Below are positions 57,230-64,000 of a DNA stretch of 64,000 nt, piece by piece. The notes beneath the pieces are model-generated. The model was not told where the DNA came from. It searched no databases and was given only the letters and a program-made list of their open reading frames with translations. A program made the translations under genes and the position numbers. Source of the stretch: Gammaproteobacteria bacterium (GTDB lineage Bacteria; Pseudomonadota; Gammaproteobacteria; Steroidobacterales; JABDKV01); contig JABDJB010000017.1 of NCBI GenBank assembly GCA_013003425.1, positions 2,794 to 66,793 on the forward strand. Direction: 5' to 3'. Within the stretch, counting starts at the first letter, position 1. Every line of letters begins with the position of its first letter.

Positions 57230-57628
57230 TTCGCGGCTGAAGCCGCTCCTGCAGGCAGGCGCTGGTGGCTCGTTACCCGGGAAGCAGCAGATGAGCTGCG
57301 CTGCCCCCGGGAAAATGATCCATCAAATGCTGGCGGGCAGCGTCAGCGCCATCTGCAATGTTGGCACCCACCGGTTCGCGGCTGAAGCCGCTCCTACAGG
57401 CGGGGACAGGCAGGTCGCGCGGTACAGGCGGGTACCGTCAGGTCGCGCGGTACAGGCGGGTACCGTCAGGTCGCCCCGGTACAGGCGGGGACAGGCAGGT
57501 CGCCCCGGTACAGGCAGGGACAGGCAGGTCGCCCGGTACAGGCGGGACCGGCTGGTCGCCCGGTTCGCGGCTGAAGCCGCTCCTGCAGGCGGGTACCGGC
57601 AGGTCGTGGCGGCTGAAGCCGCTGCTAC
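57230..57628. repeat. composite repeat region: 4 REP cores, one copy of the GCAGATGAGCTGC hairpin family, and six 27-29-bp REP-less tandem units
   Basis: REP 20-nt cores at 57231-57250, 57376-57395 and 57565-57584, with a degenerate one at 57610-57626. Tandem units ACAGGCGGG..CAGGTCGC..CGGT at 57396, 57424, 57452, 57481, 57510 and 57538. Confidence 0.9.
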
Positions 57629-57662
57629 TGTATATAAGGACAGTATAGGCTATGCTAGGGCG

Positions 57663-60600
57663 GTGAGCCTGGAAGCCTTCCATCCTGCCGTCAGCCAGTG
57701 GTTCAGCGAAACGTTGGGTCGCCCGACCGAGGTACAGCAGCGCGCCTGGCCCAGCATCGGGCTGCGGCGCCATACCCTTCTGGCCGCACCGACCGGTTCG
57801 GGCAAAACGCTGGCAGCGTTTCTGTCAGCCATTGACGACCTGGTACGCGAAGGCCTCGAGCGCGGGCTGCCGGATGAAACCCGTGTGTTGTACATCTCGC
57901 CGTTAAAGGCGCTGTCTAACGATATCCAGAAAAACCTGCAGCAGCCGCTGGAAGGTATCCGCGAAAGGTTGTTCCTGAAATATGCGCCCGGCGATGTGGA
58001 GATTCGCGCCTGGGTACGCACGGGTGACACGCCGGCGCACGAAAGACAAAAGGCAGCGCGCACGCCGCCGCATATTCTTGTTACCACGCCCGAATCGGTT
58101 TACATCCTGCTGACGTCAAAGTCGGGGCGCGAAATGCTGTCGACGGTGCGCACCGTCATTGTCGATGAAATCCACGCGATTGCGGGCAACAAACGTGGCG
58201 CTCACCTGAGCCTGAGCCTTGAACGGCTCGAGGCACTGGTACCGCACCGGCTGGCCCGTGTCGGGCTGTCGGCAACGCAGAAACCGATTGAAGGCATGGC
58301 ACGGTTTCTGGTTGGTAACCGCGATGAGTCGGTGGAAATCATTGACACAACACAGGTGTTTGCCGGCGAGGCCGGGGCACCGGCGCAACGGCCGGACATC
58401 GCCCTTGAAATACCGCGCTCTCCGCTGGCAACCATCATGTCGAACGAGGAGTGGATCGAAACCTACGACCGGCTCACTGAGTTAATCGAAGCACACAAGA
58501 CTACGCTGATTTTTGTTAACACACGGCGGCTGGCGGAACGCGCCGCGCGTCACCTTGCCGAACGAATCGGTGAAGAGTTTGTCACTGCGCACCACGGTTC
58601 ACTGTCGCGCAAGCACCGGCTGCGCGCCGAACAAAAGCTGAAAAACGGCCAGCTCAAGGCACTGGTTGCCACTGCATCACTGGAGTTGGGAATAGATATT
58701 GGCGACGTTGACCTGGTATGCCAGCTGGGCTCGCCGCGCTCGATTTCCGCATTTGTCCAAAGGGTTGGCCGCTCGGGCCACGCCGTGGGCGCAACGCCGA
58801 AGGGCCGACTGTTCCCGCTGTCACAGGACGACCTGGTTGAGTGCACCGCCATCACCGGCTGCGTCGAACGTGGCGAACTCGATCGCATCGCGATCCGCGA
58901 CAAGCCACTGGACGTACTGGCACAGCAAATTGTAGCCGAGGTTGCCGGGAAAGAGTGGGAAACCGAAGCGCTGTGGAAGGCGCTGCGCTGCGCATGGCCG
59001 TACCGCACGTTGAGGCGCGAAGAGTTTGACAACGTGATCAATATGCTGGCGCAGGGCTTTTCTACCCGTCGTGGCCGACGTGGCGCCCATATCCATCACG
59101 ATGCGGTTAACGGCCGGGTGCGGCCACGACGCGGTGCGCGCATTGTGTCGATGACCAATGGCGGCGCCATACCCGACCAGTTCGAGTACGAAGTAATACT
59201 GCAGCCGGAAGATGCGCGCATCGGCACACTGGGTGAGGATTTCGCTTTCGAAAGCCTGCCGGGCGATATCTTCCAGCTCGGCAACATGTCGTACCAGATA
59301 CAAAAAGTTGAAACCGGCCGGGTTTTTGTTACCGATGCGAACGGCCAGCCGCCCAACCTGCCGTTCTGGGTTGGCGAAGCACCGGGACGGTCTGACGAGT
59401 TGTCGCTTGCAGTATCCGATTTGCGCGGCGAAGTTGATGAACAACTGGATAACGGTCATCAGCATACCGTCGGCTGGCTGACTGAAAACTTCGGGCTGCA
59501 GCCGGAAGCGGGCACACAGCTGGTCGATTACCTGGCCAGCGCAAAGGCAGCGCTGGGCCTGGTGCCGACGCAGCAACACATTGTTTTCGAGCGGTTTTTT
59601 GATGATGCCGGCGACATGCATTTCATCATTCATGCACCGTTCGGTTCGCGCGCGAACCGTGCCTGGGGGCTGGCGCTGCGCAAGCGCTTTTGCCGCAAAT
59701 TCAACTTTGAACTGCAGGCAGCCGCGATGGAAGACTCGCTGGTGTTGTCGCTGGGGCCGACACACAGCTTTCCCATGGAAGAAGTTGCCGGTTATCTCAA
59801 AAGCCAGACGGCGCGCAAAGTACTGACGCAGGCCTTGCTCGACGCGCCAATGTTTGGCGCGCGCTGGCGCTGGAATGCAACCATTGCGCTGGCAGTGAGA
59901 CGCAATCGCAACGGCAAACGCGTGCCGCCACAGTGGCAGCGCAGTGATGCCGAAGACCTGGTCGCGCTGGTTTTTCCCGACCAGCTCGCCTGCCTCGAAA
60001 ACATCCCGGGTGAACGTGAGATACCCGATCACCCGCTGGTCAACCAGACCATTGCCGACTGCATGACCGAGACGATGGATATCGAAGCGCTGGAACAAAT
60101 CCTGCAGCGCCTCGAAGATGACGCTATCAGCGTTAAGTGCTGCGACCTGACCGGACCCTCGCCATTGTCGCAGGGCGTGATCAATGCCCGGCCCTATGCC
60201 TTCCTCGACGATGTGCCGGCGGAGGAGCGGCGTACGCTGGCCATCAGCTCGCAACGCTTCAGCGAGCCCGATGAAGCGGCGAAACTGGGCCGGCTCGACG
60301 CAGACGCCATTAAAGAAGTATGCGAACAGGCCTGGCCGGAACCGCGCACGGCGGACGAACTGCATGACGCGCTTTATGTGCTCGGCTTTATTGCGCAAGC
60401 AGAAACTGAACCCGCAAGCGACAACCTGGAATTTGGCTGGCAGCACCTGTTCGAACAGCTGGTCGGCGAAAAGCGTGCCTGCGTGATGTCCACCGGCGGC
60501 GGCGATATCTGGGCCTGCACTGAACGGTTGGCAGAAATGCGCGCAATACTGCCGGACGCAGTCTGCACGCCTGAGCTGCCGCTCGCCACGGTGGAAGTTG

Positions 60601-61739
60601 ATCCGGATACCGCGCTGGTCGATGTAATCCGCAGCCGGCTGGAAGGACTTGGCCCGGTCACTGCTGACTCACTGGCCAGACCGCCTGGCATAGATGTCGC
60701 ACGCATCGACCAGGCATTGCTGGCACTGGAAAACGAAGGCTTCGCCGTGCGTGGCCGCTTCACCGGTACTTCCGGTGACGCGCTGGAATGGTGCGACCGA
60801 CGATTGCTGGCGCGCATCCATCGCTACACCATCAAGAAAGCCCGCAAGGCCGTGCAGCCGGTTTCGAAAGCCGCCCATGCCCGCTTTACCGTGACCTGGC
60901 AGGGTGTCGGCCGCGACCGTGAAGGCCTGGCCGCCTTGCAGGCCGTGCTGGAACAGCTGGAAGGCTTTGCTGCCCCCGCACGCGCCTGGGAAAAAGAAAT
61001 TCTGCCCGCACGCATTGCCGGCTACCGCCCGGAGATGCTCGACCAGCTCTGCTCGGCCGGTCGTTTCACCTGGCTGCGTCTTGGCGCAAAAGCAAAGCCG
61101 GGCAAACGCATCCGGCCGGTACGCACAACACCGATAACCCTGATCGAACGCAGCAACCTGTCACACTGGCGGTTGTTCGGCGCACCACCCGCAGCCGATG
61201 TCATCGAGCTGACTGATAACGCACGCAGCGTGCATGGGATGCTGGCCGATCGTGGCGCATCGTTTTTCAGCGACCTGGTGCTCGACCTCGACCTGAAACA
61301 GCGTGACGTACGCGATGCCATGGCCGAGCTGGTCGCCTGGGGGCTGGTTACTTCAGACAGCTTTGCCGGGATCCGTTCGCTGGCGATGCGCCGTCCGCGA
61401 CTGGCCGACGGCCGCCGGCACTTGTCGCTGGAAGATGCCGGGCGCTGGTCCCTGCTGCGGCCACCGGCTGATGACGACGAGGCCCGCCAGGCCGCGATCG
61501 AGCATATCGGCCGCAAGCTGCTGGACCGCCACGGGGTTCTGTTCCGCAAAACGCTCGACGGCGAGCGTTTCCTGCCGCCATGGCGCGATCTGCTGCGGAT
61601 TTACTGGCGGCTCGAAGCACGAGGCGAGATTCGTGGCGGACGCTTTGTCACCGGCTACTCCGGGGAGCAGTTCGCACTGCCTGCTGCCATCCCGCTGCTA
61701 CGTCAGCAAACTCGCGATGCAACAAGTGACACGGCTTAA
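57663..61739 (+). CDS. lhr: Lhr-type large ATP-dependent DEAD/DEAH-box helicase
   Basis: FHPAVSQWFSETLGRPTEVQQRAWP, AAPTGSGKTLAAFL, VIVDEIHA, GLSATQ, HHGSLSRKHR, VATASLELGIDIG, then a long Lhr C-terminal extension. Start set at in-frame GTG 57663, because the 124 upstream codons of the track ORF are REP and tandem-repeat sequence. Confidence 0.9.
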   Translation: MSLEAFHPAVSQWFSETLGRPTEVQQRAWPSIGLRRHTLLAAPTGSGKTLAAFLSAIDDLVREGLERGLPDETRVLYISPLKALSNDIQKNLQQPLEGIRERLFLKYAPGDVEIRAWVRTGDTPAHERQKAARTPPHILVTTPESVYILLTSKSGREMLSTVRTVIVDEIHAIAGNKRGAHLSLSLERLEALVPHRLARVGLSATQKPIEGMARFLVGNRDESVEIIDTTQVFAGEAGAPAQRPDIALEIPRSPLATIMSNEEWIETYDRLTELIEAHKTTLIFVNTRRLAERAARHLAERIGEEFVTAHHGSLSRKHRLRAEQKLKNGQLKALVATASLELGIDIGDVDLVCQLGSPRSISAFVQRVGRSGHAVGATPKGRLFPLSQDDLVECTAITGCVERGELDRIAIRDKPLDVLAQQIVAEVAGKEWETEALWKALRCAWPYRTLRREEFDNVINMLAQGFSTRRGRRGAHIHHDAVNGRVRPRRGARIVSMTNGGAIPDQFEYEVILQPEDARIGTLGEDFAFESLPGDIFQLGNMSYQIQKVETGRVFVTDANGQPPNLPFWVGEAPGRSDELSLAVSDLRGEVDEQLDNGHQHTVGWLTENFGLQPEAGTQLVDYLASAKAALGLVPTQQHIVFERFFDDAGDMHFIIHAPFGSRANRAWGLALRKRFCRKFNFELQAAAMEDSLVLSLGPTHSFPMEEVAGYLKSQTARKVLTQALLDAPMFGARWRWNATIALAVRRNRNGKRVPPQWQRSDAEDLVALVFPDQLACLENIPGEREIPDHPLVNQTIADCMTETMDIEALEQILQRLEDDAISVKCCDLTGPSPLSQGVINARPYAFLDDVPAEERRTLAISSQRFSEPDEAAKLGRLDADAIKEVCEQAWPEPRTADELHDALYVLGFIAQAETEPASDNLEFGWQHLFEQLVGEKRACVMSTGGGDIWACTERLAEMRAILPDAVCTPELPLATVEVDPDTALVDVIRSRLEGLGPVTADSLARPPGIDVARIDQALLALENEGFAVRGRFTGTSGDALEWCDRRLLARIHRYTIKKARKAVQPVSKAAHARFTVTWQGVGRDREGLAALQAVLEQLEGFAAPARAWEKEILPARIAGYRPEMLDQLCSAGRFTWLRLGAKAKPGKRIRPVRTTPITLIERSNLSHWRLFGAPPAADVIELTDNARSVHGMLADRGASFFSDLVLDLDLKQRDVRDAMAELVAWGLVTSDSFAGIRSLAMRRPRLADGRRHLSLEDAGRWSLLRPPADDDEARQAAIEHIGRKLLDRHGVLFRKTLDGERFLPPWRDLLRIYWRLEARGEIRGGRFVTGYSGEQFALPAAIPLLRQQTRDATSDTA

Positions 61740-61837: not shown

Positions 61838-62110
61838 CTAATCAGTATAGGTCAGGCTGATTTGCTGCCCCTGCTGGCGCACTACACGCATGCACCGCGC
61901 GTTGATGTGTTCCCAGTCTTCTTCTGCAGCGCCCTGCACGGCAACGGTAACCTCGGTACCAACCGCCGGATGCTGGTCACCGTCCACTTCGAGTTGCAGC
62001 CCGGTCGGTGAAACATCCAGCGTGCGGCAGCGCCATTCATTACCTGCGTCATCCCGCAATGTGAACGGCAGCTCCACCTCGATACGGCTGTCGCGTCTTC
62101 GATCTGACAT
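61838..62110 (-). CDS. PilZ domain protein (c-di-GMP receptor candidate)
   Basis: RRRDSR (RxxxR) and DVSPTGL (D/NxSxxG) motifs at the correct spacing; 90 aa. Confidence 0.75.
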   Translation of the reverse strand: MSDRRRDSRIEVELPFTLRDDAGNEWRCRTLDVSPTGLQLEVDGDQHPAVGTEVTVAVQGAAEEDWEHINARCMRVVRQQGQQISLTYTD

Positions 62111-62262: not shown

Positions 62263-63885
62263 TCAGTCAGGTCGGCCGAAAGCGGCGACGCCGGATAGCG
62301 ACACGCCGGCGGCGTCAGTCAGTTCGTACGACAGTCCCGCACCGGTCGGGAACCCATCGGTGCCGCGGTTGCCGAAAAAGCCGGTGAAGCTGCCATCTCC
62401 TTCCGCCTGGCCGCCGATCAACACCGTGGAATAGATGCCGTCGAACAGCAGGTTGTCGCCAATCCTGCCGCTACCACCGGCAACCCAGCTGCGGCCACCA
62501 GCGATCAGCAACAGGCCGCTTTGCACGGTCGCATTACTGAAATTGGCCAGCAGATTGGCATTACCCAGTATTCCCGTGTTGCCGCGGGCATCAGTGGGGT
62601 CAGTGCTGCCGATAAGAACGAAATTTGCAATACCGGTAATCGGCTGAGACGTGCTTACATCCGCGGCCGGTCCGTAGACCCAGTGCAGACTTTGTTCTGC
62701 AAGGCTTGCGGAAACCAGTCTTTCATTTCGCAGCGTAACTGCCGCTGTGCCGGATGCCCAGCGCCCCCAGCCAATCCCTGTTGCGGCGTCAAAGCCGTCA
62801 TCACGAATCAGAGCGGTGCCAATAGCGTACGCGTCGTCGTTCATCTGAAAAGCCGTCAGCGCCGAGTCCCTGAATGCACGCACCCCGCGGTTCGAAACCA
62901 ACGCAAACTGGTCTGCACTGATGTCGGACAGCGGGCCGCTGGACATTGCCACAGGAAAAGTAACCGGCAACCTGCCCTCGGTTACCGGTCCGTCGGTGAC
63001 TTCGATCTGCACCTCCGGTTCGGCCTCGAAGCCGGAATTTGTCCCGTCATTGGGCGGCAACTCGGGGGCCGGCCTGCGATCCGGTTTCCCGGACTCTCCC
63101 GGCCGCTTCGGGGCTTGTGGAGTCGACCGCGGCGGAAACGCCGATGCCGGTTTCACGGCGGCGATGGTCTGGCGGAATTCCTCAACGGCCTCTATGCGCC
63201 CGGGTTCACCCGCAGGAAAGATATCGATCAGCGCCGGCGGTTTTCTAGGTAAGCGCACCGGCTTTGATCGCTTGTCACGGACGTAGACAAATTCACCGGC
63301 GTTAACCAGGTATTCGCCTGTCAGGTTTTCGAGGTGCACGATGCCGTCCGTAACGCCAATGTAGAGGCCGTCCTCGATCGGATCGAGGCTGACGATTCCT
63401 GGCGGCAGCCGGCAGTCACCGGCGCACCAGACCACGCTGTAATGTGTTCCCCGTATTCCCATGGTTGCGGCAGGCGTGTCGACCGTATAGTCCTCGTGAC
63501 TACTCCGGCCGATAGACCCGGTGATTGTTCTGAAGCCGCCCTTTATCAGTTGCGTTACGGCACCGTCATCGGCGGCCACAACGACTGATCCATCCGCCTG
63601 CTCGCGCTGGTCGCCTGCCAGGAAGTATTCCTCGATAAAAAACCGCGTATCCGCGCGTAACGCGTATTTGCTGCCGTCACGCATCAGCAGCTGTCCGCGC
63701 GATCGTGCTGCCGTCACAACCAGGTCCTGTTCGTAGACAGCGTCGTCCTTTTTGAGAATGACGTTCTTGTCACGTTCGGCTGTAACGGTGCCGCTGACGT
63801 ACAGCATCTTACCTGCCTCAGGAGCTGCTGCGACCGGCATGGCTATCGCCGCGAGCATGATCAGCACTGTGACACGCACCGTCAT
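62263..63885 (-). CDS. secreted FecR-domain protein with Pro-rich linker and TbpB-like C-terminal beta-barrel domain
   Basis: Sec signal peptide without lipobox (MTVRVTVLIMLAAIAMPVAAA). FecR motifs (LLMRDGSKYALRADTRF; TVDTPAATMGIRGTHYSV). Pro-rich 60-aa linker. The C-terminus ...LLANFSNATVQSGLLL...WVAGGSGRIGDNLLFDG...GDGSFTGFFGNRG...GVAAFGRPD follows the pattern of TbpB/fHbp-type 8-strand barrels. Confidence 0.6.
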   Translation of the reverse strand: MTVRVTVLIMLAAIAMPVAAAPEAGKMLYVSGTVTAERDKNVILKKDDAVYEQDLVVTAARSRGQLLMRDGSKYALRADTRFFIEEYFLAGDQREQADGSVVVAADDGAVTQLIKGGFRTITGSIGRSSHEDYTVDTPAATMGIRGTHYSVVWCAGDCRLPPGIVSLDPIEDGLYIGVTDGIVHLENLTGEYLVNAGEFVYVRDKRSKPVRLPRKPPALIDIFPAGEPGRIEAVEEFRQTIAAVKPASAFPPRSTPQAPKRPGESGKPDRRPAPELPPNDGTNSGFEAEPEVQIEVTDGPVTEGRLPVTFPVAMSSGPLSDISADQFALVSNRGVRAFRDSALTAFQMNDDAYAIGTALIRDDGFDAATGIGWGRWASGTAAVTLRNERLVSASLAEQSLHWVYGPAADVSTSQPITGIANFVLIGSTDPTDARGNTGILGNANLLANFSNATVQSGLLLIAGGRSWVAGGSGRIGDNLLFDGIYSTVLIGGQAEGDGSFTGFFGNRGTDGFPTGAGLSYELTDAAGVSLSGVAAFGRPD

Positions 63886-64000
63886 CTTGCCACCCGGAAA
63901 GATGCGCCGATCTCAATGCGGTCGTAATCGAAGATAGGAACATTCGAATCGTTATTTGCATAACGAACACTCGGGACGAAACTCCACCCTGGCATCGGCC
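63882..64000 (-). CDS. 3' end of an outer-membrane barrel gene (possible DUF560/Slam-type; 5' part beyond window end)
   Basis: Manual translation gives ...PMPGWSFVPSVRYANNDSNVPIFDYDRIEIGASFRVAR*. The stop overlaps the downstream ATG (ATGA at 63882-63885). The SN-x-P-(I/L)-(F/Y)-x-Y-x-R motif resembles my memory of the Slam C-terminus. Only 38 codons are visible. Confidence 0.35.
   Translation of the reverse strand, partial: PMPGWSFVPSVRYANNDSNVPIFDYDRIEIGASFRVAR

What the first reader, a model, noticed from the sequence alone, without database searches (positions are those of the whole stretch)
62263..64000. Possible type XI (Slam/DUF560) secretion pair with an unusual non-lipoprotein cargo: FecR domain fused to a TbpB-like barrel
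Seen in sequence: the 540-aa protein has a Sec signal peptide with no lipobox Cys, followed by an N-terminal ~230-aa FecR-type domain and a Pro-rich linker. The C-terminal ~200 aa have a strand pattern (ANF...V..G....W.A.G.I....F.G......G.G.F.G.FFG......G....GVAAFGR) that copies the 8-strand barrel of TbpB/fHbp/hemophilin-type proteins. Its ATG overlaps (ATGA) the stop of an upstream barrel-like gene, of which only the last 38 codons are in the window (...SVRYANNDSNVPIFDYDRIEIGASFRVAR).

Established knowledge: DUF560/Slam outer-membrane proteins translocate cargo that carries exactly this C-terminal barrel. Their cargo genes are usually adjacent. Soluble, non-lipidated cargo (hemophilins) is known.

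Inference: I do not know of a FecR-domain cargo. It would place a FecR-type sensing or binding module on or outside the cell surface, possibly feeding a signalling or uptake pathway.
Basis: partly seen in the sequence, partly recalled or inferred. Interest (0 to 1): 0.65.

Follow-up and report, generated by a model that had tools for sequence, protein, structure and literature searches.

The report
Slam-type secretion pair with FecR cargo
A divergent Slam/type 11 secretion outer-membrane protein is paired here with a non-lipidated partner that joins a FecR sensing domain to a transferrin-binding-protein-like barrel; this partner type is missing from published cargo lists and is often encoded next to cyclic-nucleotide signalling enzymes, so the pair may carry signals from the cell surface.

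Summary
The 540-aa ORF (62263-63885, minus strand) has a Sec signal without a lipobox, a Pfam FecR domain and a Pro-rich linker. Its C-terminal ~240 aa fold with high confidence (pLDDT 90) as a handle plus 8-strand barrel. The best PDB matches to that fold are HpuA, the TbpB C-lobe and hemophilin, all known Slam cargoes.

A longer contig recovers the cut upstream gene: signal peptide, two SH3 domains, a TPR region and a 14-strand barrel. That protein scores below Pfam's SlipAM threshold, but close relatives pass it.

The pairing is conserved. It holds in 13 of 13 distinct loci. In an independent metagenome sample, 23 of 23 lobe-bearing FecR genes have a Slam-like gene directly upstream, and none lacks one (Fisher p = 5e-7). 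The lobe family is large (1,387 representatives), has 1-8 tandem lobes per protein, and is unannotated. CHASE2 cyclases, PilZ or cNMP-binding proteins and giant adhesin-like proteins recur nearby. Short FecR-only relatives directly abut CHASE2 cyclases with no Slam gene.

I read this as a new type 11 secretion variant that serves as the outer-membrane front end of a cyclic-nucleotide signalling pathway. Translocation and topology have not been tested.

The parts
63882..64000 (-). 3' end (last 38 codons plus stop) of the Slam-like outer-membrane protein gene. The full gene is at L001:4616-6436 (606 aa from the first ATG, called as 598 aa = P0032): signal peptide, 2 SH3b domains, a 7-helix TPR and a 14-strand barrel.
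62263..63885 (-). Gene for the 540-aa FecR-lobe protein, the putative T11SS cargo or partner. Its ATG overlaps the upstream stop (ATGA).
63823..63885 (-). Sec (SPI-type) signal peptide, residues 1-21, with no lipobox Cys.
   Evidence: Read directly from the sequence; homologs aligned also lack a lipobox; regex check.
63241..63822 (-). FecR-type N-domain, residues ~22-215 (Pfam PF04773 core at residues 55-151), with two conserved Cys (C154, C158).
   Evidence: own N-domain HMM.
62977..63240 (-). Pro-rich, poorly conserved linker of variable length, residues ~216-303.
   Evidence: relatives have long low-complexity insertions in the alignment columns that span this linker.
62632..62976 (-). Beta 'handle' (pedestal) subdomain of the TbpB-like lobe, residues ~304-418, containing the invariant WGRW motif.
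62275..62631 (-). C-terminal 8-strand barrel, residues 419-537, ending ...VSLSGVAAFGRPD. [quoted passage not shown]
   Evidence: 8 strands, pLDDT above 90; HpuA, TbpB C-lobe and hemophilin are the top hits; in most of the 150 representatives the last matched stretch ends within 10 residues of the C-terminus.
61838..62110 (-). 90-aa PilZ-domain gene directly downstream, with the RxxxR and DxSxxG c-di-GMP-binding motifs. It is a conserved member of the locus in relatives.
   Evidence: PilZ, E 1.8e-11; 54-57% identity to the PilZ genes of L007 and L009; synteny.

Best explanation
The two overlapping genes encode a dedicated type 11 secretion (Slam/DUF560-like) outer-membrane protein and its cognate non-lipidated partner.

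Proposed mechanism. The partner crosses the inner membrane through Sec. The OMP then recognises its C-terminal TbpB-like lobe (handle plus 8-strand barrel) and delivers it to the cell surface, as happens for TbpB, HpuA and hemophilin. In place of the lipid anchor or ligand-binding 'effector' of known cargo, the N-terminus carries a FecR-type domain on a long Pro-rich tether.

The same FecR N-domain occurs alone as short Sec-exported proteins that directly abut CHASE2 adenylate/guanylate cyclases. The lobed versions keep that association. I therefore think the FecR end most likely stays in, or reports to, the periplasm and couples the surface-exposed lobe to a CHASE2 cyclase. This would be a cell-surface signalling device with cyclic-nucleotide output (PilZ here; cNMP-binding proteins elsewhere), possibly controlling the giant cadherin-type surface proteins encoded alongside.

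Shown in silico: domain architecture, folds, family membership of relatives, and strict gene pairing. Inferred: translocation, topology, and the FecR-CHASE2 contact.
For: Cargo side. A FecR domain is present. AF2 predicts a handle plus 8-strand barrel at pLDDT 90.1. The top Foldseek PDB hits are HpuA 9mr0, TbpB C-lobe 5kkx (TM 0.50/0.52), hemophilin 6om5 and TbpB 9clt/3ve1, all at probability 1.00.

OMP side. The model shows TPR plus exactly 14 strands. The best PDB barrel matches are the 14-stranded OmpG (TMt up to 0.63) and CymA. SlipAM scores exceed Pfam's cut-off in relatives: P0042, P0043, P0048, P0051, P0057, P0059 and the OMPs of L006 and L013 score 25.7-39.6 bits. P0032 is homologous to the six relatives in its own family (P0042-P0059) at E 1.8e-72 to 3.8e-26.

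Pairing. A Slam-like gene lies directly upstream on the same strand, often with a 4-bp overlap, in 16 of 16 loci, 13 of them distinct. In 49 evaluable metagenome loci found with peptide patterns from the FecR N-domain, the counts were lobe+/Slam+ 23, lobe+/Slam- 0, lobe-/Slam+ 9 and lobe-/Slam- 17 (Fisher p = 5e-7).

Family. The lobe profile finds 1,387 representatives at E <= 1e-3. About 116 of the top 150 have the FecR N-domain right after the signal peptide, followed by 1-8 tandem lobes. In most of them the last matched stretch ends within 10 residues of the C-terminus.

Signalling link. CHASE2-Guanylate_cyc genes are present in L003, L005, L007, L010, L012 and L014 and within 8 kb of 10 of the 23 lobe-positive metagenome loci. 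Short FecR-only homologs with signal peptides lie within about 100 bp of CHASE2 cyclases with no Slam gene. PilZ or cNMP-binding genes are also in the loci. The same kind of cluster (CHASE2 cyclase, FecR 'outer membrane protein', TPR protein) was independently noted in Campylobacterota (PMC9239204).
Against: No experiment bears on translocation. The window's own OMP scores only 11.1 bits on SlipAM and 20.6 on TPR_Slam, both below threshold. The lobe has no sequence-level match to TbpB_B_D or any other Pfam family, and a profile search finds no PDB sequence match. The Foldseek E-values are moderate (about 3e-4) and TM is only about 0.5. Every characterised T11SS cargo is fully surface-exposed or released, so a periplasmic N-terminal domain would be unprecedented. 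This window contains no CHASE2 cyclase, so its presence further along the contig is inferred from synteny with L007/L009. PilZ binds c-di-GMP, whereas PF00211 cyclases make cAMP or cGMP, so the output logic is unclear.
Confidence: 0.55

Rival explanations
1. Classical soluble T11SS cargo. The whole 540-aa protein, FecR domain included, is translocated and displayed or released like hemophilin. The FecR domain would act outside the cell as a binding or effector module.
For: All characterised T11SS cargoes are fully exported, and soluble non-lipidated cargo is well documented (PMC12282271). The architecture 'variable N-terminal effector, pedestal, C-terminal barrel' fits. Multi-lobe giants of up to 3351 aa look like surface fibres.
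Against: PF04773 domains are periplasmic in the characterised cases (FecR; COG4254 LysM-FecR proteins). FecR-only homologs with Sec signals abut CHASE2 cyclases with no export gene, and the lobed proteins keep the CHASE2 linkage. That linkage is hard to explain if the domain leaves the cell. Two conserved Cys suggest the domain folds in the periplasm.
Confidence: 0.25
2. No translocation at all. The Slam-like barrel acts as an outer-membrane receptor or anchor. The FecR-lobe protein is a wholly periplasmic adaptor that docks on the OMP's TPR or barrel through its lobe and on the CHASE2 domain through FecR, analogous to FecA-FecR.
For: The FecR-CHASE2 gene linkage. There is precedent for an outer-membrane protein feeding CHASE2 cyclases: NsrA with CyaK (PMC7529298). 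In this branch, SH3b domains on the OMP point into the periplasm.
Against: The lobe fold matches proteins whose barrel is the Slam translocation signal. In most of the family the final lobe sits at the extreme C-terminus, as in T11SS cargo. Eight tandem lobes (3351 aa) would be an odd periplasmic adaptor.
Confidence: 0.1
3. [quoted passage not shown]
For: PMC9239204 calls the Campylobacterota protein an outer membrane protein. Weaker Foldseek hits include a designed transmembrane barrel and KdgM.
Against: The best matches are soluble TbpB-type lobes that include the handle. Tandem arrays of 2-8 lobes are incompatible with membrane barrels. The family does not end in an aromatic residue (...AAFGRPD...VFGQPTP). 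The 'TPR protein' itself carries the 14-strand barrel.
Confidence: 0.05
4. The Slam-like OMP exports the neighbouring giant cadherin/FG-GAP protein, and the FecR-lobe protein is only a regulator.
For: Giant repeat proteins flank the pair in the extension of this window (L001) and in L007, L009, L010, L011, L012 and L014, and they are homologous across loci.
Against: The giants lack the lobe (no hit to the lobe HMM). They are absent from L003, L005, L006, L013, L015 and L016, where the pair persists.
Confidence: 0.05

Closest known systems
Slam/T11SS with soluble hemophilin-type cargo (Hpl/HphA; Slam = DUF560, Pfam PF04575)
   Same: An outer-membrane protein with a periplasmic TPR and a 14-strand barrel, encoded next to a Sec-exported, non-lipidated protein whose C-terminus is a handle plus 8-strand barrel. 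Hemophilin 6om5 is among the top structural hits.
   Different: The N-terminal module is a FecR domain on a long Pro-rich tether, not a haem-binding clamp. There is no TonB-dependent receptor partner in the operon. The OMP carries two extra SH3b domains and is below Pfam's threshold. The neighbourhood is cyclic-nucleotide signalling rather than iron uptake.
TbpB / HpuA / LbpB bilobed surface lipoproteins (Slam1/Slam2 cargo)
   Same: The lobe fold matches: TbpB C-lobe 5kkx at TM 0.50/0.52, and HpuA 9mr0 is the top hit. Tandem duplication of lobes also occurs in this family, with 1-8 copies.
   Different: No lipobox, no Pfam TbpB_B_D match, and a FecR domain at the N-terminus.
FecA-FecR-FecI cell-surface signalling
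   Same: It uses a PF04773 FecR domain and links an outer-membrane beta-barrel protein to an inner-membrane signalling output.
   Different: There is no cytoplasmic anti-sigma domain or transmembrane helix: the signal peptide is followed directly by the FecR domain. No ECF sigma factor or TonB-dependent transducer lies in the operon. The OMP is Slam-like, and the output is a CHASE2 cyclase in relatives.
CHASE2 cyclase / FecR 'outer membrane protein' / TPR protein / phosphodiesterase cluster in Campylobacterota (PMC9239204)
   Same: From the description it appears to be the same kind of gene cluster, and the authors also proposed a single signalling pathway.
   Different: That paper did not identify the TPR protein as a DUF560/Slam barrel or the FecR protein's C-terminus as a TbpB-like lobe. 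I could not fetch those sequences to confirm identity.
COG4254 LysM-FecR proteins next to CHASE2 histidine kinases ('BiofilmReg' operon, PMC5192318)
   Same: A FecR domain protein with a signal peptide is genetically coupled to a CHASE2 sensor. The distant members P0022/P0023 of this family have a marginal N-terminal LysM hit (20.7 bits against 20.9).
   Different: The paper describes no lobe or Slam-like gene in those operons, and the output is a two-component system rather than a cyclase.
NsrA-CyaK/CyaD (Sinorhizobium meliloti)
   Same: An outer-membrane beta-barrel protein is required for signal perception by CHASE2 adenylate cyclases.
   Different: NsrA is a ~1200-aa protein with a different barrel. 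Those papers describe no link to FecR-lobe proteins or T11SS.

Membership tests
T11SS outer-membrane protein (Slam / DUF560, Pfam PF04575 SlipAM) | Pfam PF04575 match above the gathering score (22 bits) in the protein itself | tested here: not met
   P0032 / L001:4616-6433 scores 11.1 bits (E 0.28), matching only residues 542-598 to profile positions 220-280.
T11SS outer-membrane protein (Slam / DUF560, Pfam PF04575 SlipAM) | Clear homology to proteins that do pass PF04575 | tested here: met
   P0032 matches P0042, P0043, P0048, P0051, P0057 and P0059 at E 1.8e-72 to 3.8e-26 over 66-71% of its length. Those score 25.7-37.4 bits on SlipAM across most of the profile. The OMPs next to distant cargo genes score 39.6 (L006) and 29.4 (L013). 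14 of 28 family members hit SlipAM.
T11SS outer-membrane protein (Slam / DUF560, Pfam PF04575 SlipAM) | N-terminal periplasmic TPR domain | tested here: met
   TPR_19 scores 50.3 bits. TPR_Slam (PF24575) is sub-threshold at 20.6 bits against 35.2, but 21 of 28 relatives hit it. AF2 predicts 7 helices at residues 190-303.
T11SS outer-membrane protein (Slam / DUF560, Pfam PF04575 SlipAM) | 14-stranded C-terminal beta-barrel | tested here: met
   AF2 (pLDDT 87) predicts exactly 14 strands between residues 314 and 597. The best PDB barrel matches are the 14-stranded OmpG (TMt up to 0.63) and CymA. The PDB holds no solved Slam for direct comparison.
T11SS outer-membrane protein (Slam / DUF560, Pfam PF04575 SlipAM) | Adjacent gene encodes a protein with a C-terminal 8-strand barrel (cargo) | tested here: met
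   13 of 13 distinct loci. In the metagenome sample, 23 of 23 lobe-positive genes have a Slam-like gene upstream.
T11SS outer-membrane protein (Slam / DUF560, Pfam PF04575 SlipAM) | OMP-dependent translocation of the cargo to the surface or medium | not testable with these tools
   Requires reconstitution or mutant experiments.
T11SS cargo (TbpB / hemophilin / fHbp type) | Sec or lipoprotein signal peptide | tested here: met
   A Sec-type signal, MTVRVTVLIMLAAIAMPVAAA|PEAG, with no Cys. Soluble cargo is an accepted class (PMC12282271).
T11SS cargo (TbpB / hemophilin / fHbp type) | C-terminal 8-strand barrel preceded by a beta handle/pedestal, at fold level | tested here: met
   AF2 at pLDDT 90.1 predicts 11 handle strands plus 8 barrel strands. 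Foldseek's top hits are HpuA, TbpB C-lobe, hemophilin and TbpB, all at probability 1.00 with TM up to 0.52.
T11SS cargo (TbpB / hemophilin / fHbp type) | Sequence match to TbpB_B_D (PF01298) or the lipoprotein C domain | tested here: not met
   No Pfam hit in the protein at E <= 1 or in any of 19 lobe sequences at E <= 10. One weak hint appears in relative P0065 (E 0.025). The lobe profile finds no PDB sequence match.
FecR-type anti-sigma regulators (cell-surface signalling) | PF04773 FecR domain | tested here: met
   30.9 bits against a cut-off of 24, residues 55-151. All 10 scanned family representatives also pass.
FecR-type anti-sigma regulators (cell-surface signalling) | Cytoplasmic anti-sigma domain plus transmembrane helix, with ECF sigma and TonB-dependent transducer partner genes | tested here: not met
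   The FecR domain begins right after a cleavable signal peptide. The neighbours are the Slam-like OMP, PilZ, an Lhr helicase and a giant adhesin-like protein.
FecR-domain partners of CHASE2 sensors (COG4254-like association) | Encoded next to a CHASE2-domain sensor protein | tested here: inconclusive
   Met in relatives: L003, L005, L007, L010, L012 and L014, plus 10 of 23 metagenome loci. No CHASE2 cyclase lies in this 64-kb window. Synteny with L007/L009 suggests one lies beyond the window end.

The most novel reading that the evidence does not exclude
A previously unrecognised trans-envelope signalling device. A Slam/T11SS barrel displays one to eight TbpB-like lobes on the cell surface. 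The same polypeptide is held by its N-terminal FecR domain in the periplasm, threaded through or tethered to the barrel by the Pro-rich linker. There the FecR domain gates the CHASE2 domain of an inner-membrane adenylate/guanylate cyclase. Under this reading, type 11 secretion would be used to build a sensor, and the long-unknown input of many CHASE2 domains would be a protein partner rather than a small ligand.
Probability: 0.3. Interest if true: 0.88.

Novelty: new variant of a known kind. Interest (0 to 1): 0.72.

Why it matters
Type 11 secretion has been verified experimentally only for a few animal-associated systems that move nutrient-scavenging or adhesin proteins. The latest cargo catalogue (PMC12282271) lists about ten architectures and found few cargoes for environmental clusters.

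This locus points to a large lobe family (1,387 representatives at 50% identity). Most of the top-scoring members are FecR-lobe proteins, and every such gene I could evaluate sits directly downstream of a divergent Slam-like gene. Databases call these proteins only 'FecR family protein' and 'tetratricopeptide repeat protein'.

The family also ties T11SS to CHASE2 cyclases, whose ligands are unknown. That gives a concrete, testable hypothesis for how CHASE2 sensors receive signals from outside the outer membrane.

A cultured carrier exists: Pseudoalteromonas ulvae (WP_086742137.1), which has the OMP, a giant repeat protein and a CHASE2 cyclase in one cluster. The hypothesis can therefore be tested directly.

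Tried and rejected
- The lobe profile found nothing against PDB sequences. Pfam at E <= 10 on 19 lobe sequences found no TbpB-type family. The resemblance is therefore structural only.
- NCBIfam gave no significant hit for either protein. A weak LapA retention-module hit (E 0.031) is not evidence.
- The OMP profile against PDB sequences found only TPR proteins, and the PDB holds no solved Slam.
- A barrel-only profile search (A4) did not reach any protein named as Slam. It found only more unannotated relatives, four of them with SlipAM hits.
- The search for related loci with the lobe alignment failed for lack of a conserved stretch. The genome scan with the single protein found only one locus, a third paralog in the same MAG.
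- The NsrA paper (PMC5952392) is not held. From PMC7529298, NsrA is a ~1200-aa protein of a different kind, so I rejected it as a relative.
- ShlB/FhaC/POTRA and porin identities for the upstream gene are rejected: no such Pfam hits appeared and the topology is a 14-strand barrel plus TPR.
- A canonical FecR anti-sigma factor is rejected: there is no transmembrane or anti-sigma part and no sigma or TonB-dependent transducer neighbours.
- I rejected the giant cadherin protein as the true cargo: it lacks the lobe and is absent from many loci.
Full report
**Observation.** The minus-strand ORF at 62263-63885 encodes 540 aa. Its ATG overlaps the stop of the upstream gene...GCA AGA TGA overlaps ATG ACG. 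The N-terminus MTVRVTVLIMLAAIAMPVAAA|PEAG is a Sec signal without a lipobox Cys. Pfam FecR (PF04773) matches residues 55-151 at 30.9 bits against a cut-off of 24. No Pfam or NCBIfam family matches the C-terminal half.

**Recovering the upstream gene.** The identical protein occurs on a Logan contig (L001, 8.5 kb) that runs past the window end. The upstream gene is complete there at L001:4616-6436. It is 606 aa from the first ATG, which gives a proper signal peptide, and 598 aa as called (P0032).
- Pfam finds two SH3b domains and a TPR region. The hits to TPR_Slam (20.6 bits against 35.2) and SlipAM/DUF560 (11.1 bits against 22) are sub-threshold.
- Its homologs form one family, A1. In that family 14 of 28 members hit SlipAM and 21 of 28 hit TPR_Slam.
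- Individually, P0042, P0043, P0048, P0051, P0057 and P0059 score 25.7-37.4 bits across most of the SlipAM profile. The OMPs next to distant cargo genes score 39.6 (L006) and 29.4 (L013).
- AlphaFold2 on A1 (pLDDT 87) gives two SH3 folds, seven TPR helices and exactly 14 beta-strands.
- The PDB has no solved Slam. The best barrel matches are the 14-stranded OmpG (TMt up to 0.63) and CymA, and BcsC matches the TPR-plus-barrel architecture.

The upstream gene is therefore a divergent member of the Slam/DUF560 lineage with added SH3 domains. It is not a TpsB-type protein or a porin.

**The C-terminal domain.** Homologs of the 540-aa protein share a conserved C-terminal ~240 aa with an invariant WGRW motif and the tail 'G.FSGFF...GAGLTY.L...VSGAA.FG.P'.
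- AlphaFold2 on this region (A3) gives pLDDT 90.1 and pTM 0.89. It predicts an 11-strand handle (protein residues 304-404) followed by an 8-strand barrel (residues 419-537).
- Foldseek against the PDB ranks HpuA (9mr0, E 2.7e-4), the TbpB C-lobe (5kkx, E 3.3e-4, TM 0.50/0.52), hemophilin (6om5, E 3.6e-4) and full TbpB (9clt, 3ve1) at the top. All have probability 1.00 and all are established Slam cargoes.
- Sequence methods do not see the relationship, so the similarity is at fold level only.

**Conservation of the pair.** I built HMMs from my own alignments and searched every fetched locus. The lobe-bearing FecR gene is directly preceded on the same strand by a Slam-like gene, often with a 4-bp overlap, in 16 of 16 loci, 13 of them distinct. 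These include the cultured Pseudoalteromonas ulvae.

As a control I used a metagenome scan whose peptide patterns came from conserved stretches of the FecR N-domain. Of its 80 loci, 49 had a complete ORF and at least 1 kb of upstream sequence:

| | Slam-like gene upstream | No Slam-like gene upstream |
|---|---|---|
| Lobe present | 23 | 0 |
| Lobe absent | 9 | 17 |

Fisher p = 5e-7. In an unfiltered HMM run restricted to 13 Slam-adjacent ORFs, two of the nine lobe-absent, Slam-adjacent proteins (L095, L096) scored as divergent lobes (E 1.5e-3 and 4.2e-3). Two more (L055, L070) have lobe-like C-terminal tails such as '...GVFTMDKQ'. The loci are not phylogenetically independent, so the p-value is only indicative.

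**Size and shape of the family.** An exhaustive profile search with the lobe finds 1,387 representatives at 50% identity with E <= 1e-3, and 340 with E <= 1e-30.
- About 116 of the top 150 have the FecR N-domain immediately after the signal peptide; most of the rest look like fragments.
- They carry 1 to 8 tandem lobes, in proteins of up to 3351 aa. In most, the last matched stretch ends within 10 residues of the C-terminus.
- A loose lipobox regex matched only 5 of the 150.
- Sources name them only 'FecR family protein' or 'hypothetical', and Pfam sees only FecR.

**Neighbourhood.** In relatives the pair is embedded with a CHASE2-Guanylate_cyc gene (L003, L005, L007, L010, L012, L014). Those cyclases are 42-72% identical to one another. 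Also present are PilZ or cNMP-binding proteins and giant cadherin, Big_9 or beta-propeller proteins.

One 144.8-kb contig has this order: cytochromes, CHASE2 cyclase, PilZ, OMP, FecR-lobe, 3455-aa cadherin protein, OMP, FecR-lobe, 1219-aa cadherin protein, PilZ, Lhr. Its far end is syntenic with this window: giant FG-GAP/cadherin protein, OMP, FecR-lobe, PilZ at 61838-62110, and Lhr on the other strand. The window itself holds no CHASE2 cyclase.

Short FecR-only homologs (175-320 aa, with signal peptides) lie within about 100 bp of CHASE2 cyclases with no Slam gene. This suggests that the FecR N-domain is the CHASE2-linked periplasmic module and that lobe plus Slam is an added outer-membrane module.

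**Mechanism.**
- Shown in silico: the architectures, the folds, family-level membership and the strict pairing.
- Inferred: the OMP translocates the lobe as Slam does for TbpB or hemophilin.
- More speculative: the FecR end stays periplasmic on its Pro-rich tether and couples surface events to the CHASE2 cyclase.
The tandem lobes, the extreme C-terminal position of the barrel and the absence of giants from many loci argue against the last two.

**Comparison with the literature.**
- The T11SS cargo catalogue lists about ten architectures, none with a FecR effector. It found few cargoes outside cluster 1 (PMC12282271).
- No held paper contains both FecR and DUF560. The T11SS papers do not mention cyclases, CHASE, SH3 or PilZ.
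- FecR-CHASE2 adjacency is also known for COG4254 LysM-FecR proteins (PMC5192318).
- An outer-membrane protein feeding CHASE2 cyclases has a precedent in NsrA.

**Verdict.** This is a new variant of a known kind: a T11SS-type pair with an uncatalogued FecR-lobe partner tied to cyclic-nucleotide signalling. Secretion and topology remain to be tested.

Noticed in passing
window 57395-57564: A 28-bp tandem repeat, 6 copies at 90% match (consensus TACAGGCGGGGACAGGCAGGTCGCCCGG). It lies inside the 5' extension of the 1482-aa Lhr helicase ORF (57291-61739, plus strand). It explains the repetitive 'RQVARYRR' N-terminus, so the true Lhr start is probably about 100 codons downstream; orthologs are 1373-1375 aa.
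   Followed up: partly
window 61838-62110 (minus strand); L007:9647-9964; L009:17119-17391: The small PilZ proteins in these loci keep the canonical c-di-GMP-binding motifs (RxxxR and DxSxxG). The associated cyclase, however, is a PF00211 adenylate/guanylate cyclase, not a GGDEF enzyme. The second-messenger logic of the locus is unexplained.
   Followed up: partly
L007, L009 and L011 (= L017, L025), MAG GCA_029862165.1: One Gammaproteobacteria MAG carries three paralogous triplets of Slam-like OMP, FecR-lobe protein and giant cadherin protein. Two are in tandem on one contig and the third is on another scaffold.
   Followed up: partly
L003:14954-21641, L005:14877-21635, L007:1134-7194, L010:421-5684: Multihaem cytochrome and LVIVD-repeat genes flank the module in several relatives. 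Some of these cytochromes carry an SH3_3 domain like the one on the Slam-like OMP. A cNMP-binding Pyr_redox/Fer4 protein follows the pair in L003 and L005. This hints at a link to extracellular electron transfer.
   Followed up: no
window 63568-63798 (residues 30-106 of the 540-aa protein): A weak NCBIfam hit to the LapA N-terminal retention module (NF033682, E 0.031, 14.5 bits against a cut-off of 50). It is not significant. It is conceptually interesting because LapA is held at the surface by a periplasmic N-terminal plug under c-di-GMP control.
   Followed up: no
P0021-P0023; L006:10001-11983: A distant branch of the family has an N-terminal extension with a marginal LysM hit (20.7 bits against a cut-off of 20.9) before the FecR domain. 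This resembles the COG4254 LysM-FecR proteins that partner CHASE2 kinases.
   Followed up: partly
L052, L053, L054, L059, L068, L080: Short (175-320 aa) Sec-exported FecR-only proteins of the same N-domain family sit within about 100 bp of CHASE2 cyclases, with no Slam-like gene and no lobe. This looks like a simpler two-gene version of the system.
   Followed up: partly
P0073 (3351 aa, L015:7001-17056); P0138 (2098 aa, L013:8001-14297): Giant family members carry 5-8 tandem handle-barrel lobes after a single FecR domain. L015 also encodes a cNMP-binding Ser/Thr kinase next to the pair.
   Followed up: no
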